Shown here: positions 1 through 26,332 of the stretch, piece after piece
How positions within the stretch are numbered: position 1 is the first letter of the stretch
Layout of the letters: each line of letters begins with the position of its first letter
IMG/VR virus record: IMGVR_UViG_3300027279_000002
DNA from: a virus
DNA: 26,332 nucleotides
Reading direction: 5' to 3' (one strand)
The notes under the pieces: model-generated
The model's input: the letters and a program-made list of their open reading frames with translations, nothing else
Told to the model about the DNA's origin: nothing
Database searches by the model: none
Program-made: the position numbers and the translations under genes

Positions 1-127
1 ATGAGGTTTTGAAAGAACTTGAAATTTTAACTGATGAAATAAAAGCCAAAACGAGCAAAATTGATGAATTTGAAAAGCAGTTAAATAGTGTTACCGAAGA
101 GATAGCAAAAATAAAAACACTGACAAT
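1..127. repeat. Terminal overlap, identical to 26206-26332 (circular closure or terminal redundancy)
   Basis: Base-by-base comparison: window nt 1-127 (atgaggttttgaaagaactt...aacactgacaat) reappear exactly at 26206-26332. Confidence 0.95.
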
Positions 128-10272: not shown

Positions 10273-10800
10273 ATGGATGAGAGGTTTAACAGACTTTTTA
10301 AGGACATATTAAAGCACGAAGGCGGGTATGTAAATGACCCAAACGATTTGGGGGGTGAAACGAAGTATGGAATTTCCAAGCGTTCCTACCCGCATTTGGA
10401 TATTCCAAAACTCACCGAAGAGCAGGCTAAAACAATTTACTATTACGATTACTGGGAGAAATACCACGTTGACAAACTAGCAAAAGTGAGTTTTCAGGTG
10501 GCAAGTAAATACTTTGATTTTCTTATAAACGCGGGTGAAAAGAATGCTAAAAATGCGCTTATTAAAAGCATTAATGAACTTGGCTATAATGTTACGAACG
10601 ATAGAGATATGAACGAAGACATTTTGCTATCAGTTAAGGAAATTGTTATGACAAACAAGAAAGAAGTGTTAATAAACAACTTTATTAAAAACCAAAAGCA
10701 GTATTATATAACAATAGCAGAGAAGAGACCGCAGAACAAAAAATTTCTAAATGGCTGGTTAAGAAGAGCGGAATACAGAGGGGTTACAGACTACGGCTAA
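10273..10800 (+). CDS. Endolysin, glycoside hydrolase family 108-like with a C-terminal PG_binding_3-like region
   Basis: N-terminus KHEGGYVNDPNDLGGETKYGIS matches the GH108 signature. The C-terminus FLNGWLRRAEY matches the usual GW-x-x-R end of the associated peptidoglycan-binding domain. Confidence 0.8.
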   Translation: MDERFNRLFKDILKHEGGYVNDPNDLGGETKYGISKRSYPHLDIPKLTEEQAKTIYYYDYWEKYHVDKLAKVSFQVASKYFDFLINAGEKNAKNALIKSINELGYNVTNDRDMNEDILLSVKEIVMTNKKEVLINNFIKNQKQYYITIAEKRPQNKKFLNGWLRRAEYRGVTDYG

Positions 10801-14169: not shown

Positions 14170-15435
14170 ATGGCTTTGGAAATAGTTTATGTTAGTGCTA
14201 ATGAGTTAAGAGAAAGTGAGTATAACCCCCGTAGATTCCCGAAAGAAACAAAAGATAAACTTAAGGAAAGCATTAAAAAATTCGGTTTCGTTAACCCCTT
14301 GATTGTCAACTCTAACCCCGAAAGAAAAAACATCGTAATCGGCGGGCACTTTAGGCTTTTGGTTGCAAAAGAACTAGGTATTAAAGAAGTTCCAGTCGTT
14401 TATGTTAATGTGGATAAGGAAAAAGAGAAAGAGTTAAGCTTAAGACTAAACCGTAACACTGGTGAATGGGACTGGAAATTGTTAAGAATGTTTGAAAGTG
14501 ATTTTTTAAAAAGAATTGGCTTTTCGGATAGAGATTTGGAAAAGATTTTCACAAGAACGAGAAAGGTATTAAGTAAAGATTTTATCGTTCCGCCGTTATC
14601 GGTTCTGGATGCTAGGAAGCAAACATGGATAACAAGAATGACAGAATGGGAAGAACTCGGGTTTGATGGAACAAAAGGAAGACCAACGAAGCTCTTAGGG
14701 ATTTCTAAGCAAGTTGGTGGCGGTGAAGGAACTTCCAAGTTTGACCCAGTATTGGCGGAGATTTGTTATAGGTGGTTCAATACTGAAAATGGTATTATTT
14801 TGGACCCGTTTTCTGGTGGTGTTACGAGGGGGTTTGTTGCTGGCTATCTTGGATACGAATATTGGGGAGTTGATATAAGCGAAGAACAGATAAAAGCGAA
14901 CTTGGAGCAGGTAGAAGAGTTACAGCATTTACTAAAAGTAAAACCTAAATACATTATTGGCGATAGTTATGAAATAGATAATCTTATCCAAAAACGTGAA
15001 TTTGATTTAATTTTTACATGCCCGCCCTACTTTGATTTGGAACGTTACACTGATAACCCGAATGACTTAAGTAACATGAGCTGGGAGAGATTTAGAGAAA
15101 GATATAAAGCAATAATTAAAAAATCCTGCGACTTATTAGCGGAAAATAGGTTTGCTGTGTTTGTTGTGTCAGAGGTTAGAGACAGGGACGGGGTTTATAG
15201 AGGACTAGTGGAACTAACAAAAGAAGCATTTAGAGAAGCGGGGTTAAAATTCTACAATGATATTGTTTATCTTAACGCAGTAGGAAATGCAGCAGTTCGT
15301 GCTAGAAAACAAATGAAAACAAGGAAAGTCGTTAAAGTGCACCAAAATATTTTGGTTTTCTATAAGGGTGATACGGAAAGAATAATGGAATTTTTCGGGG
15401 AAATAAAAAACGAAAGTGATGAGGAAGATTATTAA
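14170..15435 (+). CDS. ParB-like N-terminal domain fused to a SAM-dependent DNA methyltransferase
   Basis: ParB/Srx-like N-terminus (NPRRFP...SIKKFGFVNPLIVN...VIGGHFRL...ELGIKEVPVVYV). Motif I-like ILDPFSGGVTRG, followed about 70 aa later by motif IV-like DLIFTCPPYF. Confidence 0.75.
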   Translation: MALEIVYVSANELRESEYNPRRFPKETKDKLKESIKKFGFVNPLIVNSNPERKNIVIGGHFRLLVAKELGIKEVPVVYVNVDKEKEKELSLRLNRNTGEWDWKLLRMFESDFLKRIGFSDRDLEKIFTRTRKVLSKDFIVPPLSVLDARKQTWITRMTEWEELGFDGTKGRPTKLLGISKQVGGGEGTSKFDPVLAEICYRWFNTENGIILDPFSGGVTRGFVAGYLGYEYWGVDISEEQIKANLEQVEELQHLLKVKPKYIIGDSYEIDNLIQKREFDLIFTCPPYFDLERYTDNPNDLSNMSWERFRERYKAIIKKSCDLLAENRFAVFVVSEVRDRDGVYRGLVELTKEAFREAGLKFYNDIVYLNAVGNAAVRARKQMKTRKVVKVHQNILVFYKGDTERIMEFFGEIKNESDEEDY

Positions 15436-18446: not shown

Positions 18447-19499
18447 ATGATGAAACAAATACGAAAAATTATAAAAAATCTAACGGGGGCTTATATGGAG
18501 GAAATAAACAAAGTTTTAAGAATGTTCAGAGATAAGGAATTAGAGAAAAAAGTGTTAACTTATATTCTACTGTTACAGGAACAAGGGGAACTAAATAGTT
18601 ACGAAGACATGGACATTCTTAAGGATATCCTTATTTCTTTTGCTTTACAAAAAGCAAAAAATATTAACACTCAAACTCTTCTAAAAAGCACCTTCCTTGC
18701 GAGGTGCTTTGAGTATAGAAGGGGGTTTTGGGATAAAACAATATCGGAACTCTACGAACTAATCTTTTTACAAACACAACAGCAAACTAAAACCGAAAAC
18801 CAAAACCAAATCAAAATAGAAACACAAGAACAAAAACAAAGTGAAACTGTTAAAGCGGTAGAAGAAATAACCGAAAGAGAAACAAAAGAAAACGAAGAGA
18901 ATAAGGAAAAACTAAACTCTTTGTTTGCGTTTGCTGGTAAAGTGTGGGAAAGGTTAAAAATTCCTGAAAAAATGCCAAAGGAATTCGTATGGGCATTAAG
19001 AGATAAACTGCAAAGTTACAGCGAGGAGGATATCCTAATATTCGTTACAATATTCCGAAAAATAGAGCCAGCAGGCGGCTGGAAACTGTTTATTTCACAG
19101 TTTCATACTCTATCTGTTATTGCTAAATCCTTAAAGAATCAAAGCACTGTTTTAAAATCCAAACTTGTTAATCGTGCATGGGAAACTCTTATTCATAAGA
19201 CTGATTATATTTCGTTAGAGATACTACCAAAACTCGGACAGATGGCTTATAAATTCATAAAATCAAAGATATTTGATTTAAGTAAAAATAGTAGTGATTT
19301 TATACCATCTCTTAATTCATTTCTGGACAAAATTTTTAAAGAGTGGTCGGCGATGACAGAAACAGAGAAAGGAAACTGGAGAAGTAATAGTAAAGAGTTA
19401 ATGCTACAGGATGCGAAAAAGTATAATATTCAGGTCGTTTTAGATAGTAAAGGTGAAATTATAAGTGTGAATACAAGCGGGAACGGTGTTTTGGCTTAG
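18447..19499 (+). CDS. Two-domain hypothetical protein (possible replication organiser, positional)
   Basis: GGGGGGT SD. 350 aa, with N- and C-terminal regions separated by a Gln/Thr/Glu-rich linker encoded by A/C-only low-complexity DNA (about 18786-18841). Confidence 0.45.
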   Translation: MMKQIRKIIKNLTGAYMEEINKVLRMFRDKELEKKVLTYILLLQEQGELNSYEDMDILKDILISFALQKAKNINTQTLLKSTFLARCFEYRRGFWDKTISELYELIFLQTQQQTKTENQNQIKIETQEQKQSETVKAVEEITERETKENEENKEKLNSLFAFAGKVWERLKIPEKMPKEFVWALRDKLQSYSEEDILIFVTIFRKIEPAGGWKLFISQFHTLSVIAKSLKNQSTVLKSKLVNRAWETLIHKTDYISLEILPKLGQMAYKFIKSKIFDLSKNSSDFIPSLNSFLDKIFKEWSAMTETEKGNWRSNSKELMLQDAKKYNIQVVLDSKGEIISVNTSGNGVLA

Positions 19500-19512
19500 C
19501 CGTTCCTGTTTT
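19480..19512 (+). terminator. Weak terminator-like hairpin at the end of the early region
   Basis: GGAACGG (19480-19486) pairs with CCGTTCC (19500-19506) around a 13-nt loop, followed by TGTTTTCC. Confidence 0.3.
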
Positions 19513-19541
19513 CCTTTCATATCTCTTTTTAAATCTCTCTA

Positions 19542-19573
19542 ATGCATATATTCTATGTATTTTATTATAGAAC
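19542..19573 (-). promoter_or_regulatory. Conserved AT-rich element, copy 4 (inverted orientation)
   Basis: The reverse complement reads GTTCTATAATAAAATACATAGAATATATGCAT. The 15-nt core CATAGAATATATGCA (19557 down to 19543) is perfect, and TATAAT lies on the minus strand at 19569-19564. Confidence 0.5.
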
Positions 19574-19605
19574 TCAAAAATCTCTAATCCTTTATAATTT
19601 CACCT
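19570..19605 (+). promoter_or_regulatory. Candidate promoter for a leaderless transcript
   Basis: Perfect TATAAT at 19593-19598, exactly 7 nt before the ATG at 19606. There is no SD, and only a weak -35 (TAGAAC/GAACTC). Confidence 0.4.
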
Positions 19606-20148
19606 ATGAAACAGTGGAAAATTGAGAAAAGAAAAGTAAGTGAACTTAAATTCTACCCTGGTAACCCACGAAAAATTAGTAAAGAGATGTTAGAAAAACT
19701 TAAAAACAGTATTCGTGAGTTTGGAGCAGTGGAACCTTTGGTTATAAATCCCAGAAATGAGGTTATAGGTGGTAACCAACGATTAAAAGCCCTACGGGAA
19801 CTCGGAATTGAGGAAGTGGATTGTATCGTTGTAGATTTACCGAAGTCAAAAGAAAAAGCACTTAATATTGCGTTAAATAAAATACAAGGCGAGTTTGATG
19901 AAGATTTATTAAGGTTATTCTTAATTGACATAGAACTACCAGATTTTGACTTAACTGGTTTAGAGGATGTTTTTAAAGAAAAATGCGGTAACATTGAGGA
20001 GTATTTTTCGGAAATTGAACCTAAGCCATACAAGAAGTTCCATATTTTGCTTTCGTTTGATATTGATGCTTACGTTAGACAGATAGACAAGATAAACGAA
20101 TTTATAAACTCTCTTGAGGGGGTAGAAGTTGAAAAGTCACAAAACTGA
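19606..20148 (+). CDS. ParB-like N-terminal domain protein (paralog of the N-terminus of 14170-15435)
   Basis: Shares with the fusion protein: GNPRKIS, LKNSIREFGAVEPLVINP, VIGGNQRL, RELGIEEV, KSKEKALNIALNK, GEFDEDLL. Confidence 0.7.
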   Translation: MKQWKIEKRKVSELKFYPGNPRKISKEMLEKLKNSIREFGAVEPLVINPRNEVIGGNQRLKALRELGIEEVDCIVVDLPKSKEKALNIALNKIQGEFDEDLLRLFLIDIELPDFDLTGLEDVFKEKCGNIEEYFSEIEPKPYKKFHILLSFDIDAYVRQIDKINEFINSLEGVEVEKSQN

Positions 20149-20698
20149 TAATAGTCACTTTTGGGGTAAAGTTAGGTTAAGAGAAAAAATGATTGAAGAC
20201 CTAAGCGAAATAAATGTTTTGGATTTATACAGTGGGTATGGGACCATTTGGAGTACCATTAAAGAAAGGAATAAAGATAAGAAAATAAATGTTACATCAG
20301 TAGAGAAGGTTAAAGGTAAAAATCCAAATGCTATTTGTGCGGATGCTTTAAAACTTATTCCATCTTTGGATCTTAGTAGGTATGATGTTATAGACATAGA
20401 TGTTTACGGAAACCCATACAAACCACTTAAGGCTATTGTTAAGAATGGTAGTTTTAAGGATGGAGTTAATATTTTTTTAACGGACATTCGGATTGGTTAT
20501 GGAGCGGTTCCAACTGAACTATTGCTTAGCCTTGGTTTTGCGGAGAAACAAATAAAGAAAGCACCAACTATTTTTTATAAGTTTGAACAATTGGCAATTT
20601 TTAACTTCCTTTACGAACTTGGTGTTAAGAAAGTGTTGAAATTTCAGCCGACTTATAATAAAATTTATATAGGTTTTAAATTAAGGAGGTGTTTATGA
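20129..20698 (+). CDS. SAM-dependent methyltransferase-like protein (Trm1/RsmD-like motifs)
   Basis: TTG start 8 nt after a GAGGGGGT SD, overlapping the upstream gene by 20 nt. Motif I-like VLDLYSGYG and motif IV-like DVIDIDVYGNPY. Confidence 0.5.
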   Translation: MKSHKTDNSHFWGKVRLREKMIEDLSEINVLDLYSGYGTIWSTIKERNKDKKINVTSVEKVKGKNPNAICADALKLIPSLDLSRYDVIDIDVYGNPYKPLKAIVKNGSFKDGVNIFLTDIRIGYGAVPTELLLSLGFAEKQIKKAPTIFYKFEQLAIFNFLYELGVKKVLKFQPTYNKIYIGFKLRRCL

Positions 20699-21528
20699 AG
20701 GTAATTTACGAACCAAAGGGGAGAGCTAGGGAATATGCCCCCCTAGCTGTCAACCTTTTTACTGGATGTACGCATGGCTGTAAGTATTGCTATGTTCCAA
20801 GAATTTTAAACAAATCTTACTCAGAGTACATTGTTTTTCAAAAAAAAGACAATATACTAAAAGATCTGGAAGAGGATTGTAAAAAATACTGTTGCTCAAA
20901 ACTATATGTTCAGTTATCTTTCGTAGGGGACCCCTACGATGCAATGGATACGGAAGGAATAACAAGAGAGGCGCTAAAAATACTTTTAAGATACAAAATT
21001 CCAGTTTCAATACTAACCAAAGGTGGTAGTAGGCTATTAAGAGATTTGGATATATTTAAAAAGTTCGGAGAACACATAATAGTTGGACAAAGCTTGACCT
21101 TTATATCCAAAGAAAAAAGCCTTAAGTGGGAACCTAACGCGGCGCTTCCAGAAGAAAGGATTGATACCTTCAAAATTCTAAAGGAAAATGGGATAAGAAC
21201 ATGGGCTAGCCTTGAGCCAACCATTGACCCAGAGGAAAGTTTGGAGTTAATAAAAAGAACCTTACCATATGTTGATTACTACAAGATGGGTAAGGTCAAT
21301 CATATAGGCATAGAAAACAAAATAGACTGGAGATGGTTTGCAATTAGAGCAATCGAAATACTCAATGCTAATGGCAAAGACTTTTACATAAAAAAAGACT
21401 TAAGAGAGGCTAGCGGAGTTGAACATTTGTTAACCCCGAGACAAAAAGATCAGGACGACATGAAGGTTAAACCTTTCCCTTGTGAGCATTGCAACAAAAA
21501 CGATAACAAAGATTTACTTTTGTTTTAG
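20695..21528 (+). CDS. Radical SAM protein, SplB-like (family often annotated DNA repair photolyase)
   Basis: AAGGAGGTG SD and ATGA overlap with the upstream gene. CxxxCxxC in GCTHGCKYCY (first Cys codon at 20767). Downstream ILTKGG..LLRDLD, EPNAALPEERI and SLEPTIDPEES match the usual layout of this family. Confidence 0.7.
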   Translation: MKVIYEPKGRAREYAPLAVNLFTGCTHGCKYCYVPRILNKSYSEYIVFQKKDNILKDLEEDCKKYCCSKLYVQLSFVGDPYDAMDTEGITREALKILLRYKIPVSILTKGGSRLLRDLDIFKKFGEHIIVGQSLTFISKEKSLKWEPNAALPEERIDTFKILKENGIRTWASLEPTIDPEESLELIKRTLPYVDYYKMGKVNHIGIENKIDWRWFAIRAIEILNANGKDFYIKKDLREASGVEHLLTPRQKDQDDMKVKPFPCEHCNKNDNKDLLLF

Positions 21529-21674: not shown

Positions 21675-22043
21675 ATGCGTAGTGAGAAAAAAGACATAAT
21701 AAAACGACAGATTTTGGAAGCACTAGGCAGTGGACTACCACGCTATAAGGCTTGTGAAAGTGTTGGAATATCTCTATCAACTTTTTACCGTTGGCTAAAC
21801 CAGGATAAAAAATTTGCTAGAGAAGTGGCTGAAGCGGAAGAGGTAGCGGTGATGCTAGTAGAAGATGCTTTGTATGCTAAAGCAATAAAGGGAGATGTAA
21901 GAGCTATGATTTTCTTTTTAACCAACCGAAGACCGAACCGTTGGAAAGTTGCAGGTAATGAGTTAGCAAGTGGCGAGGAAAGGAAAATTGTTTTTGAGGT
22001 GGTAGATGCAAGAAGTGAGAGTGAAAGTAACGAGGCTGTTTAG
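21675..22043 (+). CDS. terS: Terminase small subunit (HTH type)
   Basis: The HTH CESVGISLSTFYRWL and the IFFLTNRRPNRWK block are typical of small terminase subunits. Lies directly upstream of, and overlaps, terL. No SD. Confidence 0.65.
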   Translation: MRSEKKDIIKRQILEALGSGLPRYKACESVGISLSTFYRWLNQDKKFAREVAEAEEVAVMLVEDALYAKAIKGDVRAMIFFLTNRRPNRWKVAGNELASGEERKIVFEVVDARSESESNEAV

Positions 22044-23172
22044 AGAGTTATTAAATAGCAAAGAAGCGGTAATTATAAATGTCGGTGGTGCTAGGAGTGG
22101 TAAAAGTTTTGCAACAATGCAATACTTAATTTACAAACTACTCTCGGAGCAGGATAGATTTGTTCTTATCACCCGAAAAACTTTTCCATCGTTGCGGGTT
22201 TCGGTTATTTTACCGTTTTTGGAAATGTTAAACAAGTTAGGAATTCGTTATCTTTACAACAAGTCAGAGCACTTATTAGCAGTTAATAACAATTTGCTTT
22301 TGTTTTCATCGTTGGATAACCCCGAAAAAATTAAGTCAACTGAGTTTAATTATATCTGGATGGAGGAGGCTAATGAATTCACTTACGAAGATTATCAACT
22401 TCTTAAGATGCGTTTATCCAGACCGACTAACACTAAAAACCAAATTATTTTGACCTTCAATCCTGTGGAGTGCTACATTTCTGAAAGGGTGATGGTGGAG
22501 GAGAAAGACATTAAAATAATTCGTAGTAATTACAAAGACAATCCGTTTTTGAGTGAGGAATACAAAAGACTTTTAGAAGACTTAAAGCACCAAAACCAAA
22601 CTCTTTACAAAATTTATGCTCTCGGTGAGTTTGCTACTCCAGAGGGGCTTGTTTATGACAACTTTGAAATTATCTACAGTTATGAAACAGCCGAAAAAGA
22701 TAAAATCATCTGGGGACTAGACTTTGGTTATAATGACCCTACGGCTTTAGTTAAGTTAGCCGTAAACACAGATACAAAGCAAATAACAATTCTGGAGGAG
22801 TTTTATCAAACACATTTGACAACCACCGAAATCGTAGAAATTGTTAAAAGTAAGATAGCACCGAATAAGTTAGTAGTTTGTGATAGTGCTGAACCCGACA
22901 GGATAAGAGAACTACAACTAGCGGGGATTTGGGCGGTTCCTAGTTTGAAGACAAGAATAACAGAGGAAATAAACTACATTAAAACTTTTAAAATTAAAGT
23001 GCTTAATTACTGTCAAAACACCATAAAAGAGTTAAAAAGTTACACGTGGAAAGAGAAAAACGGAAAATGGCTTGATGAACCTGTTGATTTTGCTAATCAT
23101 GCGTTAGATGCTATGCGTTATGCTGTAACTTATTTAACAAAATCAAGCGGTTTTTATTTCGTTGTAAAATAA
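22006..23172 (+). CDS. terL: Terminase large subunit (PBSX-like)
   Basis: Walker A GGARSGKS, Walker B-like IWMEEANE, and C-terminal nuclease-like DSAEPDRI and HALDAMRY. Confidence 0.85.
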   Translation: MQEVRVKVTRLFRELLNSKEAVIINVGGARSGKSFATMQYLIYKLLSEQDRFVLITRKTFPSLRVSVILPFLEMLNKLGIRYLYNKSEHLLAVNNNLLLFSSLDNPEKIKSTEFNYIWMEEANEFTYEDYQLLKMRLSRPTNTKNQIILTFNPVECYISERVMVEEKDIKIIRSNYKDNPFLSEEYKRLLEDLKHQNQTLYKIYALGEFATPEGLVYDNFEIIYSYETAEKDKIIWGLDFGYNDPTALVKLAVNTDTKQITILEEFYQTHLTTTEIVEIVKSKIAPNKLVVCDSAEPDRIRELQLAGIWAVPSLKTRITEEINYIKTFKIKVLNYCQNTIKELKSYTWKEKNGKWLDEPVDFANHALDAMRYAVTYLTKSSGFYFVVK

Positions 23173-23202: not shown

Positions 23203-25095
23203 ATGGGGCTTTTTGATACTCTTTTTAATGCTTTCAGGAAACTAAAAACATCTTTAATGCTACCTTCCAGTGACATAGAAATATCGGCTGACTATGTTTT
23301 TAGGAATGCTTATTTCGTGGCTGGAGTAGAAGCAATAATTAGGGGTTTACAAAGACTAGAGGTAGAGGTGGTGAACGATAAAGGAGAAAAAACAAAAACA
23401 TTCCTGGATAACATAAACCTAAACGACTTACTTCGTGCTATTATTTACGACTTATACACCTATGGTAATGCTTATGTTTACATTATTAAAGTTGCTAATA
23501 AGATAACAAATCTTTTTTCTTTACCACCTTCAAAAGTGTTAATCAAAACCAACAATGATGGAACGGCTTTGTATGTTTTGGAAGGAAAGGAAATAAACGG
23601 TGAGGATATTTTACACTTTAAGCGTTTTATTCCAAACGAAGCCGACTACTACAGAACCATAAGAGGTGACAGCGTAACAAAAGGGATTGAAGACATGCTA
23701 AAACTAAACTACCTCATTAACTCATCACTAGCAATTAACTTTAAGCGAAACAATCTTCCATCCATTGCGTTAATAAATAAGCAACCAATACCAGCAAGCG
23801 AACGGGAAAGATTTATTGAGGACATGGAGCAAAAACTCATGGGGAATTATTCCTTTTTGTATTTGCAAGGCGACACCGAACTTAAGGAACTTGTAGCAAA
23901 GTTTCCCGAGTGGACTTTAACAGTGAAAGACAAGATAAGAGACGAAGTTTTGGCAGTTTTGGGAGTTCCAAGGCTTTTGGTGGGTGATACGGATAGCGTT
24001 AACTATGCTAATGCTAAACAGCAATATCAAGTCTTCTACACCGAGACGATAATACCACTTGCAAGGCTTTTGGAAGATGAGTTTAACAGTAAAATTTTTG
24101 GTAAACAAGGCTTAAGATTGCGTTTCAGGACTGATGCAATTGAGGTATTACAACAGGATATTAAAGAAAGAGCACAAGCAATGATGATACTTTGGCAAAT
24201 GGGTTATAGTGTTGAAGAGTTAGCCGAAATGTTTAACTTGCCAAAACCGAAGATTAGCGAAAATAACAAAACCAAAGAAGACACAAATGAAGAGAAAACA
24301 GATACTAACATCGTTATAAGGAAAACAATAGATAACATGATGCTAGAAGATGTTAGAATAAAAGCGTTTAACTTTCGTAAGAAGAGCGATAGAGAATTCT
24401 TTAATCTTATTACCAAACTAGTAGCCGAAAACATAAGAGAGTTTGACAGTGAAATGTTTAATAAAGTTCTTTCGGTTCTAAGGGGTGATATGAAACTAGC
24501 TGATTTTGAATACGAATTAGATAAATTTTTCCTAGACAGAAATAACGACTGGATAACAACAACCAAAGACTTTTACATTAAAAATACTTTTACGTTTTTA
24601 AAGGAAGTTCACAGAAAGCAAGTTCAGAAAGATATGTTTAGTTTGTTGGTGGATAATATCATTGACAGGCACGCAAAGAAAATAAAAAAGACAAATGAAA
24701 CGGTGAAAAGACAAATAAGAAACAAAATAAGCAATCTTCTAAACAGTTACGGAAGTGTAAGAGAGTTGAGCGATGAGATTGTAGAGAATATTAAATTATA
24801 CATCATAAAGCCATTCAAGAACCAAAGAGCCAGAGCGATGACAATAGCAAGAACGGAGTTAACAAGCGTAGTTGAAGATGTCAATTTTACCTATCATGAA
24901 GCATATGACTTCCAATACAAAATCTGGGTAACAGCTATGGACGAGGTAGTTAGGGAAAGTCATCAGCACTTAGATGGCATGAAAGTATGGATTGGTGAAG
25001 TGTTTCCTAATGGCTTAATGTATCCTGGAGACCCCCATGCGGTAGACCCAGGCGAGGTAATTAATTGTAGGTGCACGGTGATTTATGAGCCATAA
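23203..25095 (+). CDS. Portal protein fused to a C-terminal MuF/SPP1 gp7-like head morphogenesis domain
   Basis: Portal-like N-terminal part (YGNAYVYII, LAVLGVPRLLVGD). Lys/Glu/Thr-rich linker near 24238-24310. The C-terminus has IARTELTS, VRESHQHLDG, PGDPH and INCRCT, the MuF-type signature. Confidence 0.75.
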   Translation: MGLFDTLFNAFRKLKTSLMLPSSDIEISADYVFRNAYFVAGVEAIIRGLQRLEVEVVNDKGEKTKTFLDNINLNDLLRAIIYDLYTYGNAYVYIIKVANKITNLFSLPPSKVLIKTNNDGTALYVLEGKEINGEDILHFKRFIPNEADYYRTIRGDSVTKGIEDMLKLNYLINSSLAINFKRNNLPSIALINKQPIPASERERFIEDMEQKLMGNYSFLYLQGDTELKELVAKFPEWTLTVKDKIRDEVLAVLGVPRLLVGDTDSVNYANAKQQYQVFYTETIIPLARLLEDEFNSKIFGKQGLRLRFRTDAIEVLQQDIKERAQAMMILWQMGYSVEELAEMFNLPKPKISENNKTKEDTNEEKTDTNIVIRKTIDNMMLEDVRIKAFNFRKKSDREFFNLITKLVAENIREFDSEMFNKVLSVLRGDMKLADFEYELDKFFLDRNNDWITTTKDFYIKNTFTFLKEVHRKQVQKDMFSLLVDNIIDRHAKKIKKTNETVKRQIRNKISNLLNSYGSVRELSDEIVENIKLYIIKPFKNQRARAMTIARTELTSVVEDVNFTYHEAYDFQYKIWVTAMDEVVRESHQHLDGMKVWIGEVFPNGLMYPGDPHAVDPGEVINCRCTVIYEP

Positions 25096-26201: not shown

Positions 26202-26332
26202 ATGGATGAGGTTTTGAAAGAACTTGAAATTTTAACTGATGAAATAAAAGCCAAAACGAGCAAAATTGATGAATTTGAAAAGCAGTTAAATAGTGTTACC
26301 GAAGAGATAGCAAAAATAAAAACACTGACAAT
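26202..26332 (+). CDS. Major capsid protein, N-terminal fragment (continues at nt 1 of the window)
   Basis: ATG at 26202 preceded by AAGGGGGT SD. It reads MDEVLKELEILTDE..., in frame with the ORF at 9-1064 once the 127-nt overlap is collapsed. Confidence 0.8.
   Translation, partial: MDEVLKELEILTDEIKAKTSKIDEFEKQLNSVTEEIAKIKTLT
26206..26332. repeat. Terminal overlap, identical to 1-127
   Basis: Exact 127-nt identity with the window start. Confidence 0.95.

What the first reader, a model, noticed from the sequence alone, without database searches (positions are those of the whole stretch)
19606..21528. Translationally coupled ParB-like / methyltransferase-like / SplB-like radical SAM trio next to the packaging genes: candidate uncharacterised DNA modification or repair module
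Three genes are tightly coupled: a 20-nt overlap at 20129-20148 and an ATGA overlap at 20695-20698. They sit between a promoter-like region and terS. Gene 1 is a stand-alone ParB/Srx-type N-terminal domain and a clear paralog of the N-terminus of the ParB-methyltransferase fusion at 14170. Gene 2 has SAM-binding (VLDLYSGYG) and D-I-D-x-Y-G-N-P-Y motifs reminiscent of Trm1/RsmD-type methyltransferases. Gene 3 is a CxxxCxxC radical SAM enzyme (GCTHGCKYCY) with the block layout of the family usually auto-annotated as spore photoproduct lyase-like DNA repair photolyase. No biochemical role is established, to my knowledge, for that family in phages. I recall that protein-family databases describe a conserved but uncharacterised pairing of such three-Cys radical SAM proteins with a partner protein. 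I cannot verify that gene 2 belongs to that partner family. The phage therefore carries one fused and one split ParB+MTase unit, and only the split one recruits a radical SAM enzyme. This suggests radical chemistry on DNA or nucleotides (unusual base modification, anti-restriction, or dimer repair) rather than ordinary methylation.
Basis: partly seen in the sequence, partly recalled or inferred. Interest (0 to 1): 0.72.

Follow-up and report, generated by a model that had tools for sequence, protein, structure and literature searches.

The report
Phage ParB–methyltransferase–radical SAM DNA-modification module
Just upstream of its DNA-packaging genes, this small phage carries a three-gene cassette (a ParB-like DNA adaptor, a new Trm1-like methyltransferase and a spore-photoproduct-lyase-like radical SAM enzyme) that recurs in many phages, mostly of anaerobic bacteria, and probably makes an undescribed chemical mark on phage DNA.

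Summary
There are three co-directional ORFs: g1 at 19606-20148, g2 at 20129-20698 and g3 at 20695-21528. g1 and g2 overlap by 20 nt, g2 and g3 share an ATGA, and both downstream starts have strong Shine-Dalgarno sites.

- **g1** is a ParB N-domain protein, 45% identical to the N-terminus of the ParB-MTase fusion at 14170.
- **g2** matches no family model itself. Its family is a class I methyltransferase whose closest match is the Trm1 catalytic domain (shared DxDx[YF]GxP motif). It is not TcmP.
- **g3** is a radical SAM enzyme of the SplB-like clade. It scores far below the cut-offs for the SPL, PA0069 and Rv2578c models, and is a remote homologue of phage M6 gp53, which acts on DNA.

The trio is a real module. 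Of 80 loci seeded on g2, 77 carry g3 and 78 carry g1. Of 161 loci seeded on g3, 117 carry a ParB and/or methyltransferase partner, and 78 have the same gene order. Relatives of g2 occur fused to ParB (33 of 241) or to small terminase (62 of 241), still next to g3-family genes.

My best reading is a DNA-targeted, two-enzyme post-replicative base-modification system. The chemistry and product are unknown. I found no description of it in the literature I could search.

The parts
19475..19511 (+). Terminator-like hairpin (GGGAACGG / CCGUUCC) with the stop codon of ORF 18447-19499 in its loop, followed by a U-rich tail. It probably separates the trio from the upstream gene.
   Evidence: RNA fold of 19440-19625: -46.1 kcal/mol, z = -4.3, 0 of 200 shuffles fold as well. 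The consensus scan missed it, possibly because its loop looks longer than the scan's 8-nt limit.
19606..20148 (+). g1: a 180-aa stand-alone ParB/Srx N-domain protein with a roughly 60-aa C-terminal region. Proposed DNA-loading or activator subunit.
   Evidence: Pfam ParB_N 38.4 bits against a cut-off of 26.3. phrog_620, E 8.6e-42. 45% identity to the 14170 N-terminus. Conserved N20, G55 and R59.
20116..20148 (+). g1/g2 coupling region: SD GAGGGGG (20116-20122), the TTG start of g2 (20129) and the TGA stop of g1 (20146-20148), giving a 20-nt overlap.
   Evidence: Sequence read. The modal ORF overlaps in homologous loci are -20 and -26 nt.
20129..20698 (+). g2: a 189-aa class I SAM-dependent methyltransferase of a new Trm1-like family. 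Motif I is VLDLYSGYG and motif IV is DIDVYGNP.
   Evidence: g2 itself has no Pfam, NCBIfam, PHROG or PADLOC hit. 13 of 35 homologues hit Pfam TRM. The family profile against PDB gives Trm1 2dul at E 1e-3. The AF2 model has pLDDT 81 and a methyltransferase fold.
20683..20698 (+). g2/g3 coupling region: SD AAGGAGG (20683-20689) and the ATGA start/stop overlap (20695-20698).
   Evidence: Sequence read.
20695..21528 (+). g3: a 277-aa radical SAM enzyme of the SplB-like clade, with cluster motif C27-x3-C31-x2-C34 followed by Tyr.
   Evidence: Pfam Radical_SAM 51.6 bits against a cut-off of 29.5. The best NCBIfam match is PA0069 at 76 bits against 360. The AF2 model has pLDDT 94; the SPL structure 4fhc gives the highest query TM-score (0.63) and among the longest alignments (288 columns; 4k9r, an SPL point mutant, has 290). 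hhalign against M6 gp53 gives probability 95%.
21675..22043 (+). Small terminase (TerS). It is homologous to the TerS domains that are fused to g2-family methyltransferases in other phages.
   Evidence: Pfam Sf6_terminase and HTH_23. An HMM built from this terS hits the C-terminus of 62 g2-family proteins.
22006..23172 (+). Large terminase (TerL).
   Evidence: Pfam Terminase_3, E 6.7e-35, plus Terminase_3C.
14170..15435 (+). Second, fused ParB_N - N6_N4 DNA methyltransferase. This is the architecture that takes the place of g1+g2 near the radical SAM gene in 17 other loci.
   Evidence: Pfam ParB_N and N6_N4_Mtase. phrog_498, E 4e-113. Equivalent fusions near g3 homologues.

Best explanation
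The three genes encode one DNA-directed modification machine, made late and alongside the packaging genes. g3, an SPL-like radical SAM enzyme, uses a 5'-deoxyadenosyl radical to abstract a hydrogen atom from a base in double-stranded phage DNA. g2, a Trm1-like SAM-dependent methyltransferase, adds a methyl group to the same site. g2 most likely acts on the product of g3, because g2 is almost never found without g3 while g3 can occur without g2. g1, the ParB-like protein, is the DNA-targeting or activating subunit that brings g2 onto phage DNA or holds it there. In other phages this role is built into the methyltransferase by fusion to ParB or to the small terminase. The result would be a modified base that plain methylation cannot give, placed post-replicatively on phage DNA before or during packaging.

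**Shown:**
- the gene anatomy
- the family assignments
- the co-occurrence and fusion patterns

**Inferred:**
- that DNA is the substrate
- the order of the steps
- the role of g1
- the existence of a new base

**Unknown:**
- the target base
- the product
For: 1. **Module.** Of 80 loci seeded on g2, 77 carry a g3 homologue and 78 a g1 homologue.
   - Of 161 loci seeded on g3, 83 carry split ParB plus g2, and 78 of those have the order g1>g2>g3.
   - 3 carry a ParB-g2 fusion and 17 a ParB-N6_N4 methyltransferase fusion.
2. **Persistence.** The methyltransferase/radical SAM pair survives rearrangement.
   - It is convergent in L009, L034, L045 and L249.
   - The radical SAM gene comes first in L049, L060, L079 and L246.
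3. **Rosetta-stone fusions place g2 on DNA.** Of 241 g2-family proteins, 33 are ParB-methyltransferase fusions and 62 are methyltransferase-TerS fusions. In L246 the order is g3-family radical SAM, methyltransferase-TerS, TerL, portal.
4. **Partner swap.** In 17 loci the partner near g3 is a ParB fusion whose second domain is an N6/N4 DNA methyltransferase in the fusions I scanned. This points to DNA and to methylation as the shared function.
5. **g3 kinship with DNA-acting enzymes.**
   - g3 is a remote homologue (hhalign probability 95%, E 1.7e-8) of M6 gp53, a radical SAM enzyme shown to rearrange a thymidine modification on DNA (PMC8989533).
   - The solved structure with the highest query TM-score is spore photoproduct lyase, a DNA enzyme (TM 0.63).
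6. **Precedent for g1.** A phage ParB-like protein lacking a DNA-binding domain is an obligatory activator of a post-replicative DNA base-modifying enzyme on dsDNA (PMC13229309).
7. **Position.** The first large ORF downstream of g3 in the surveyed loci is most often a terminase large subunit, from at least four Pfam TerL families.
8. **Genome content.** The 26-kb genome has no other recognisable nucleotide-metabolism genes, so the substrate is probably an ordinary base in DNA.
Against: - No product or activity is shown. Everything about the substrate is contextual.
- The closest homologue of g2's catalytic domain, Trm1, is a tRNA enzyme.
- About 28 loci with enough flank have g3 and no ParB or methyltransferase within 4-5 kb, so g3 does not strictly need these partners nearby.
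- The slot upstream of the terminase genes is, from general knowledge, a hot spot for accessory genes, which could inflate co-location.
- The genome strongly avoids palindromic 4-mers (GATC 8 observed / 109 expected, CCGG 0/61, GGCC 0/43, GTAC 10/121). This argues against a genome-wide protective hypermodification and for a sequence-limited or local mark.
- The surveyed loci were not dereplicated, and the g2-seeded and g3-seeded sets share some contigs.
- No complex prediction could be run.
Confidence: 0.5

Rival explanations
1. There are two unrelated functions that merely share a genomic slot. g1+g2 would be an ordinary split ParB-methyltransferase that methylates DNA for anti-restriction. 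g3 would be an independent accessory enzyme, for example a DNA-lesion repair enzyme in the manner of spore photoproduct lyase.
For: - g3 occurs without any ParB or methyltransferase gene nearby in about 28 well-flanked loci.
- ParB-methyltransferase fusions are a common phage architecture in their own right (bioRxiv 10.1101/2025.10.10.680097; the window's own 14170 gene).
- Databases label g3 homologues 'DNA repair photolyase'.
- The SPL fold gives the highest query TM-score among solved structures.
Against: - g2 is found with g3 in 77 of 80 loci selected on g2 alone.
- The pair survives changes of order, of strand and of fusion partner.
- g2-g3 gaps are mostly under 40 nt, and the two genes share an ATGA here.
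- g3 scores 21.5 bits against the SPL family cut-off of 437.55.
- No Cys other than the cluster triad is invariant in the family (90% or more identical in 120 sequences), so SPL's Cys hydrogen donor is not evident.
- Most hosts are gut or other anaerobes, where UV photoproducts are unlikely.
Confidence: 0.15
2. The module is a packaging-control mark. It would modify only the pac or terminase-loading region, recognised through ParB or TerS. The purpose would be to time or license packaging initiation rather than to protect the genome. Dam methylation of the phage P1 pac site works this way (from general knowledge).
For: - 62 of 241 g2-family proteins are fused to a TerS domain homologous to the window's TerS.
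- The module sits directly upstream of terS-terL here, and upstream of a TerL gene in most surveyed loci that have a large downstream ORF, across at least four TerL families.
- Strong palindrome avoidance shows the bulk genome is still exposed to restriction.
Against: - No repeated candidate pac or parS motif was found around the module.
- ParB-type partners suggest spreading along DNA rather than action at one site (general knowledge of ParB).
- A radical SAM step seems elaborate for a regulatory mark.
- This reading partly overlaps with the best explanation.
Confidence: 0.12
3. The module is an RNA-modification cassette. g2 would be a Trm1-like tRNA or rRNA guanine-N2 methyltransferase and g3 an RNA-modifying radical SAM enzyme (as TYW1, MiaB and RlmN are), retuning host translation for late genes. 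The ParB/Srx fold would serve as a nucleotide-binding module.
For: - The only specific sequence similarity of the g2 family is to Trm1: Pfam TRM in 13 of 35 members, TIGR00308 in 7 of 35, and PDB 2dul.
- Many radical SAM nucleic-acid enzymes act on RNA.
- TYW1 appears among the structural matches (rank 26).
Against: - g2 is only about 190 aa, roughly half the length of the solved Trm1 chains (378-392 aa). The profile match covers only the catalytic domain, so there is no room for an extra substrate-binding domain.
- The family's fusion partners are DNA-binding modules, ParB and TerS HTH.
- In 17 loci the place of g1+g2 is taken by N6_N4 DNA methyltransferase fusions.
- g3's only characterised detectable homologue acts on DNA.
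Confidence: 0.07
4. The module acts on a nucleotide, small molecule or protein. For example, it might make a modified NTP or a SAM-derived metabolite, or modify a packaging or virion protein. g1 would serve as an NTP-binding ParB-fold subunit.
For: - ParB folds bind CTP, ATP or GTP (bioRxiv 10.1101/2025.10.10.680097).
- The top structural matches to g3 include peptide maturases (SuiB, SkfB) and viperin.
- The top structural matches to g2 are small-molecule methyltransferases.
Against: - Those structural matches are generic (TM about 0.5-0.6).
- Nothing in the genome suggests a nucleotide-salvage or precursor pathway.
- The fusions to TerS and the replacement by DNA methyltransferases point to DNA.
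Confidence: 0.08

Closest known systems
ParB-dependent phage thymine dioxygenases (5mYOX/ParB pairs; O'Toole et al., PNAS 2026, PMC13229309)
   Same: - A short phage ParB-like protein without a recognisable DNA-binding domain is encoded next to a post-replicative DNA base-modifying enzyme.
- The clusters often lie near terminase genes.
- In that system ParB is required for activity on dsDNA.
   Different: - The enzyme there is an O2- and 2-oxoglutarate-dependent dioxygenase. Here it is an O2-sensitive radical SAM enzyme plus a methyltransferase.
- The hosts here are mostly anaerobes.
- No activity has been shown for g1.
Pseudomonas phage M6 gp53, a radical SAM isomerase in thymidine hypermodification (Lee et al., NAR 2021, PMC8989533)
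   Same: - Both are SplB-like radical SAM enzymes auto-annotated as 'DNA repair photolyase'.
- They are detectably homologous over the core (hhalign probability 95%, 153 columns).
- gp53 acts on a base in polymeric DNA.
   Different: - gp53 is 480 aa and works within a 5-hmdU, kinase, glycine-transferase and PLP-enzyme pathway. None of those genes is recognisable in this 26-kb genome.
- Identity is only about 20%.
- gp53's neighbours in M6 are a PLP enzyme, a glycine transferase and a kinase, with no ParB or methyltransferase partner apparent.
Phage ParB_N - DNA methyltransferase fusions (PF02195 + PF01555 or Methyltransf_23; surveyed in bioRxiv 10.1101/2025.10.10.680097; the window's gene 14170-15435)
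   Same: - g1+g2 is the split form of a ParB-methyltransferase unit.
- Single-chain ParB-g2 fusions exist (L009, L020, L034, P0124-P0142).
   Different: - The methyltransferase domain is a different, unannotated Trm1-like family.
- That family is almost always accompanied by a radical SAM gene.
Spore photoproduct lyase and the SplB-like (COG1533) radical SAM families PA0069 and Rv2578c
   Same: - CxxxCxxC followed by Tyr.
- A partial TIM-barrel radical SAM fold (TM 0.63 to 4fhc).
- These are the best-scoring NCBIfam models.
   Different: - Scores are far below every family cut-off: 76 against 360, 44 against 430, 21.5 against 437.55.
- There is no invariant Cys that could correspond to SPL's Cys hydrogen donor.
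- The sequence profile does not find SPL chains in the PDB at E up to 10.
Trm1, the tRNA (guanine-N2)-dimethyltransferase
   Same: - A Rossmann methyltransferase with the motif IV signature D-x-D-P-F-G-S-P, aligned to D-L-D-x-Y-G-x-P of the g2 family.
- Sub-threshold Pfam and TIGR matches in many family members.
   Different: - g2 is about half the size of the solved Trm1 chains, and only the catalytic domain is matched.
- g2 itself does not match the models.
- The genomic and fusion context points to DNA.
TcmP (TIGR04474) with its DUF5131 / three-Cys partner
   Same: - A mobile-element pair of a Cys-motif radical-SAM-like protein and a partner protein.
- The DUF5131-like partner shares GC..GC.xCY, ILTK and SFEP motifs with g3.
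   Different: - g2 is not TcmP (no NCBIfam hit; hhalign probability 1%).
- g3 against the TcmP partner gives only 2% probability.

Membership tests
Radical SAM superfamily (g3) | A CxxxCxxC cluster motif and a match to PF04055 above the gathering score | tested here: met
   C27-x3-C31-x2-C34 is invariant in 120 sequences. PF04055 scores 51.6 bits against 29.5.
Radical SAM superfamily (g3) | A partial or full TIM-barrel radical SAM fold | tested here: met
   The AF2 model has pLDDT 94.4. Every Foldseek PDB match ranked 1-42 is a radical SAM enzyme, with probability 1.00.
Spore photoproduct lyase family (TIGR03886) (g3) | A score above the curated family cut-off | tested here: not met
   21.5 bits against 437.55, and only residues 8-68 are matched.
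Spore photoproduct lyase family (g3) | A conserved Cys hydrogen-atom donor outside the cluster motif (C140/C141 in SPL; from general knowledge and the mutant names in PDB 4fhe and 4fhg) | tested here: not met
   Only C27, C31 and C34 are invariant or nearly invariant Cys residues in 120 homologues. Structural equivalence was not checked residue by residue.
Spore photoproduct lyase family (g3) | A Tyr immediately after the third cluster Cys (the Y98 position of the radical relay; PDB 4k9r is the Y98F mutant) | tested here: met
   C34-Y35 is invariant. This was judged from the sequence pattern only.
PA0069 family radical SAM (NF033668) (g3) | A score above the curated cut-off | tested here: not met
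   76.1 bits against 360. GenBank nevertheless gives the Dulem virus 36 homologue this name.
Rv2578c family (NF038135) and radical SAM mobile pair protein B (TIGR04470) (g3) | A score above the curated cut-off | tested here: not met
   44.2 bits against 430, and 38.7 bits against 410.
M6 gp53-type DNA radical SAM isomerase (g3) | Homology to gp53, plus the accompanying 5-hmdU, kinase, glycine-transferase and PLP-decarboxylase genes | tested here: inconclusive
   Homology is detected (hhalign probability 95%). None of the pathway genes is recognisable in the complete 26-kb genome, but many ORFs have unknown function.
TcmP, three-Cys-motif partner protein (TIGR04474) (g2) | A match to the TcmP model or to a bona fide TcmP sequence | tested here: not met
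   No NCBIfam hit for g2 or for 35 homologues. hhalign of the family profile against S. meliloti TcmP (itself 216 bits to TIGR04474) gives probability 1%.
Trm1 / PF02005 TRM (g2) | A match above the gathering score | tested here: not met
   g2 has no hit at E up to 0.1. 13 of 35 homologues hit PF02005, with a best E of 6.4e-6.
Trm1 / PF02005 TRM (g2) | The catalytic D-P-[FY]-G motif IV and a SAM-binding motif I | tested here: met
   D89, D91 and P96 are invariant and G94 is nearly so. The motif aligns to DLDPFGSP of 2dul.
Trm1 (g2) | The C-terminal tRNA-binding domain (from general knowledge of Trm1 structures) | tested here: not met
   g2 is 189 aa and its model is a single Rossmann domain. 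The solved Trm1 chains are 378-392 aa.
Class I SAM-dependent methyltransferase fold (g2) | A Rossmann-like methyltransferase fold | tested here: met
   The AF2 model has pLDDT 81. 41 PDB matches have E up to 1e-3, nearly all of them methyltransferases, with TM about 0.5. The same holds in BFVD.
ParB/Srx N-terminal domain (PF02195) (g1) | A match above the gathering score | tested here: met
   38.4 bits against 26.3, over residues 6-85.
Canonical chromosome- or plasmid-partition ParB (TIGR00180) (g1) | A full-length match with HTH DNA-binding and dimerisation domains, and the GERRxR box II | tested here: not met
   34.7 bits against 58.45, N-domain only. Box II reads GGNQRLKA, with a single conserved Arg.
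Known anti-phage defence systems (PADLOC) | A match of g2 or g3 to any defence-system model | tested here: not met
   No hits for g2 or g3. g1 matches only the ParB-like N-terminus of a Type II methyltransferase model.

The most novel reading that the evidence does not exclude
The module could be an oxygen-independent route to functionalising a canonical base in double-stranded DNA. The SPL-like radical SAM enzyme would generate a base radical; the thymine C5-methyl radical that SPL itself handles is the obvious candidate. That radical would be converted to a new substituent, which the Trm1-like enzyme then methylates. This would be the anaerobic counterpart of the ParB-dependent TET/JBP-type thymine dioxygenases, in the way HemN and BchE are anaerobic counterparts of oxygenases (from general knowledge). 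It would yield a DNA base not yet described, made by phages of gut anaerobes. ParB or TerS would confine the chemistry to phage DNA.
Probability: 0.2. Interest if true: 0.9.

Novelty: new variant of a known kind. Interest (0 to 1): 0.7.

Why it matters
Phage DNA modifications are a source of new nucleic-acid chemistry, of enzymes for epigenetic sequencing, and of explanations for how phages escape restriction and CRISPR.

Only one radical SAM enzyme (M6 gp53) was known to install a DNA modification as of that 2021 report, and I found no later example. ParB-like activators of DNA-modifying enzymes were first demonstrated in 2026.

This module would matter for several reasons:
- It combines both themes with a methyltransferase family that has no annotation.
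- It is widespread. At least 374 confirmed g3 stretches are in IMG/VR, and 179 loci are in species-representative genomes, mostly gut Clostridia and Bacteroidota.
- It is compact, at 1.9 kb and three genes, so it can be tested directly by heterologous expression.

The methyltransferase-TerS and ParB-methyltransferase fusions also suggest a general principle: phages may tether DNA-modifying enzymes to proteins that load at phage-specific sites. That would explain how phage DNA rather than host DNA gets marked.

Tried and rejected
- **Close relatives.** No near-identical phage exists in GenBank (megablast, no match). The only annotated relative with the trio is Dulem virus 36.
- **Direct search with g2.** The word-indexed search found only 3 close proteins. 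I had to build the family from neighbours of g3 homologues instead.
- **TcmP.** Rejected after retrieving a real TcmP from pSymA.
- **SPL, PA0069, Rv2578c and mobile-pair-B membership.** All rejected on curated cut-offs. Sequence profiles do not reach SPL in the PDB.
- **An M6-like thymidine hypermodification pathway.** No 5-hmdU synthase, kinase, aGPT-Pplase or PLP enzyme is recognisable in this genome.
- **A sigma-70 promoter upstream of g1.** No + strand hit, and the count equals that of shuffles.
- **A programmed frameshift joining g1 and g2 into a ParB-methyltransferase fusion.** g2 is in the +1 frame. The overlap GTT GAA AAG TCA CAA AAC TGA has no re-pairing slippery site (read). Ordinary termination-reinitiation with an SD is the simpler reading.
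- **A methyltransferase-radical SAM fusion protein.** None was found among 241 g2-family proteins.
- **Defence-system membership.** No PADLOC hit for g2 or g3.
- **A parS- or pac-like repeat near the module.** Only short AT-rich repeats, plus one 14-nt inverted repeat that looks like an RNA-level feature.
- **Structure searches for g2.** Both PDB and BFVD gave only generic methyltransferase matches.
- **Alignment for the reverse survey.** The full g2 alignment was too divergent for the search for related loci, so I used a closer subset.

Full report
**1. What is there**

The window is a complete phage genome. Its ends repeat exactly over 127 nt, giving about 26.2 kb at 34% GC. All long ORFs are on the + strand.
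- The left 10.8 kb includes a major head protein gene (9-1064) and an endolysin gene (10273-10800); the ORFs between them had no PHROG match.
- ORFs of unknown function fill 10.9-19.5 kb, interrupted by a ParB_N-N6_N4 DNA methyltransferase fusion at 14170-15435.
- The trio follows. After it come terS (21675-22043), terL (22006-23172) and a 630-aa ORF (23203-25095) in the position of a portal gene, which I did not scan.

- g2 starts at TTG 20129, 6 nt after GAGGGGG and 20 nt before the g1 stop.
- g3 starts at ATG 20695, 5 nt after AAGGAGG, and shares ATGA with the g2 stop.
- The TTG start is credible because the most conserved N-terminal residues of the family (TDNS, K14, R18) lie upstream of the first ATG.
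- A terminator-like hairpin follows the upstream gene at 19475-19511 (fold z = -4.3). The sigma-70 scan finds no promoter before g1.
- No hairpin follows g3, so read-through into terS is possible.

**2. What each protein is**

*g1* is a ParB/Srx N-domain.
- It scores 38.4 bits on Pfam ParB_N against a cut-off of 26.3, and E 8.6e-42 on phrog_620.
- A short C-terminal region follows the domain, and no HTH is detected. It falls below the cut-off for partition ParB.
- It is 45% identical to the N-terminus of the 14170 fusion (E 5e-23).

*g2* matches nothing in Pfam, NCBIfam, PHROGs or PADLOC. I therefore built its family from the neighbours of g3 homologues.
- 13 of 35 members give sub-threshold hits to Pfam TRM (Trm1), and 7 of 35 hit TIGR00308.
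- The family profile's best PDB match is Pyrococcus Trm1, with DLDxYGxP aligned on DLDPFGSP (E 1e-3).
- The AlphaFold model (pLDDT 81) is a single class I methyltransferase domain. Its structural neighbours are only generic; Trm1 ranks 23rd.
- D-x-[FY]-G after strand 4 is the signature of methyltransferases that act on exocyclic amino groups (general knowledge). An N-methylation is therefore the most likely chemistry, but that is an inference.
- g2 is not TcmP. A genuine TcmP from S. meliloti pSymA scores 216 bits on TIGR04474, while the g2 profile matches it with 1% probability.

*g3* is a radical SAM enzyme.
- PF04055 scores 51.6 bits. C27, C31 and C34 are invariant and are the only conserved Cys residues.
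- Its best family models are PA0069, Rv2578c, mobile-pair protein B and SPL, all at a small fraction of their cut-offs.
- The model is very confident (pLDDT 94). Spore photoproduct lyase gives the highest query TM-score and among the longest alignments of the solved structures (TM 0.63 over 288 columns). SuiB scores similarly.
- The family profile detects phage M6 gp53 with 95% probability. gp53 is the radical SAM isomerase that rearranges N-alpha-glycinylthymidine on DNA (PMC8989533).
- g3 is thus a new, compact branch of the SplB-like clade. It is not a member of any named family.

**3. Is the trio a unit?** Yes.

*Survey seeded on g3.* This covered 80 IMG/VR loci, 80 loci from species-representative genomes and Dulem virus 36, 161 in all.

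| Partner found within 4-5 kb of g3 | Loci |
|---|---|
| Separate ParB and g2 genes | 83 |
| Single-chain ParB-g2 fusion | 3 |
| ParB fused to a longer partner (N6_N4 methyltransferase in the ones scanned) | 17 |
| g2 only | 11 |
| ParB only | 3 |
| Neither | 44 |

- Of the 83 split loci, 78 have the order g1>g2>g3 on one strand.
- Pfam confirmed the ParB-N6_N4 methyltransferase architecture on nine fusions.
- Of the 44 loci with neither partner, 16 are truncated within 1.5 kb upstream.

*Survey seeded on g2 alone.* Of 80 loci, 77 carry g3 and 78 carry g1.

The dependence is therefore asymmetric. g2 essentially never occurs without g3, while g3 accepts another methyltransferase type or stands alone.

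The pair also survives rearrangement:
- the methyltransferase lies downstream of the radical SAM gene in L049, L060, L079 and L246;
- the two genes are convergent in L009, L034, L045 and L249.

*Caveats:* the loci were not dereplicated, and the two surveys share some contigs.

**4. Fusions that say what the methyltransferase touches**

Architectures among 241 g2-family proteins:

| Architecture | Proteins |
|---|---|
| Stand-alone methyltransferase | 131 |
| C-terminal small-terminase domain | 62 |
| N-terminal ParB domain | 33 |
| Fused to the radical SAM enzyme | 0 |

- The TerS domain is recognised by an HMM built from this window's own terS, and by Pfam Sf6_terminase and HTH_23 in the members scanned.
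- In L246 the order is g3-family radical SAM (273 bits), methyltransferase-TerS fusion, TerL, portal.
- ParB and TerS are both proteins that load on DNA at specific sites (general knowledge).
- Together with the substitution by bona fide DNA methyltransferase domains, this is the main argument that the substrate is DNA.
- In the surveyed loci, the first large ORF downstream of g3 is most often a TerL from one of at least four Pfam families. The position next to the packaging genes is therefore conserved across unrelated packaging machineries.

**5. Mechanism proposed**

A phage ParB-like protein lacking a DNA-binding domain is required for a post-replicative thymine dioxygenase to act on dsDNA (PMC13229309). 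ParB-methyltransferase fusions are a recognised but unexplained phage architecture. By analogy, I propose this division of labour:
- g1 loads or activates the enzymes on phage DNA.
- g3 performs hydrogen-atom abstraction on a base. This is the chemistry that SPL and gp53 carry out at the thymine C5-methyl or methylene position.
- g2 methylates the resulting group.

The order 'g3 then g2' is inferred only from the asymmetric co-occurrence. The target base and the product cannot be deduced.

Hosts named in the genome records are mostly gut and other anaerobes: Christensenellales, Oscillospiraceae, Lachnospiraceae, Bacteroidales, Megasphaera and Akkermansia, with a few taxa I take to be aerobic (Saprospiraceae, Mucilaginibacter). 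This fits an oxygen-sensitive enzyme. It also argues against UV-photoproduct repair.

**6. Evidence that limits the claim**

- The genome purges palindromic tetramers to an unusual degree. The seven lowest observed/expected 4-mers are all palindromes (CCGG 0/61, GGCC 0/43, GATC 8/109, GTAC 10/121, TCGA 16/106, ACGT 36/100, AGCT 86/229). The DNA is evidently still exposed to Type II restriction.
- Any modification is therefore probably sequence-specific, partial or local rather than a blanket hypermodification. That keeps the packaging-control rival alive.
- g3 without partners in about 28 well-flanked loci keeps the 'independent functions' rival alive.
- No activity, complex or product has been shown.

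**7. Novelty**

Full-text searches found no description of this combination. The terms covered ParB with radical SAM, PA0069, SplB-like enzymes in phages, and radical SAM with DNA hypermodification. The components' kinds are known, namely radical SAM enzymes acting on DNA, ParB accessory proteins and ParB-methyltransferases. New here are their combination, the methyltransferase family and its TerS fusions. I rate it a new variant of a known kind, with a one-in-five chance that it encodes new DNA chemistry.

Noticed in passing
window 1-127 and 26206-26332: The two ends of the window are an exact 127-nt direct repeat. The window is therefore a complete, circularly assembled phage genome of about 26,205 bp at 34.4% GC.
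   Followed up: partly
whole window: Palindromic tetranucleotides are avoided to an extreme degree. The seven lowest observed/expected 4-mers are all palindromes (CCGG 0/61, GGCC 0/43, GATC 8/109, GTAC 10/121, TCGA 16/106, ACGT 36/100, AGCT 86/229). CTAG and TTAA are not depleted. This implies strong Type II restriction pressure despite two methyltransferase genes.
   Followed up: partly
L246:5001-6053 (protein P0197); also P0152, P0162, P0176, P0177, P0185 and others: 62 of 241 g2-family methyltransferases are fused at the C-terminus to a small-terminase domain homologous to the window's TerS. In L246 the fusion sits between a g3-family radical SAM gene and TerL. I found no description of methyltransferase-TerS fusions in the papers searched.
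   Followed up: partly
window 19451-19464 and 19592-19605: A perfect 14-nt inverted repeat (AGGTGAAATTATAA / TTATAATTTCACCT) encloses the terminator-like hairpin and ends exactly at the g1 start codon. The predicted RNA structure has z = -4.3. It may control g1 translation or transcript processing.
   Followed up: partly
window 19593-19606: TATAAT lies 7 nt upstream of the g1 ATG, and g1 has no Shine-Dalgarno sequence, unlike g2 and g3. g1 may therefore be translated from a leaderless or near-leaderless transcript. No -35 element was found.
   Followed up: no
L022:624-1481; protein P0247; protein P0336: Other decorations occur in the g2 family: an N-terminal HNH-containing extension (L022; the single HNH hit is probably this member), a C-terminal HNH domain (P0247), and an intein with a LAGLIDADG domain inserted after the methyltransferase domain (P0336).
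   Followed up: no
L164:14221-15039 and L164:15075-16322 (S. meliloti pSymA): The protein encoded next to TcmP shares the motifs GC..GC.xCY, ILTK and SFEP with the g3 family in the hhalign alignment, although the probability is only 2%. It also scores 72 bits on 'radical SAM mobile pair protein A'. DUF5131-type proteins may be very distant relatives of the g3 clade.
   Followed up: partly
L247:1-36: The phage contig that carries the radical SAM + methyltransferase-TerS pair also encodes a 418-aa DUF5131 protein a few kb upstream.
   Followed up: no
window 22006-22043: terS and terL overlap by 38 nt.
   Followed up: no
L105 (Zongyangia hominis NSJ-54) and L143 (Bacteroides pyogenes DSM 20611): Two loci come from named cultured strains and carry g3 homologues, in both cases without ParB or g2 within 5 kb. 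They could serve as experimental handles for the radical SAM enzyme alone. I did not check whether the regions are prophages.
   Followed up: no
window 18447-19499: The 350-aa ORF directly upstream of the trio has a Q/E/K-rich low-complexity centre and no convincing family match.
   Followed up: no
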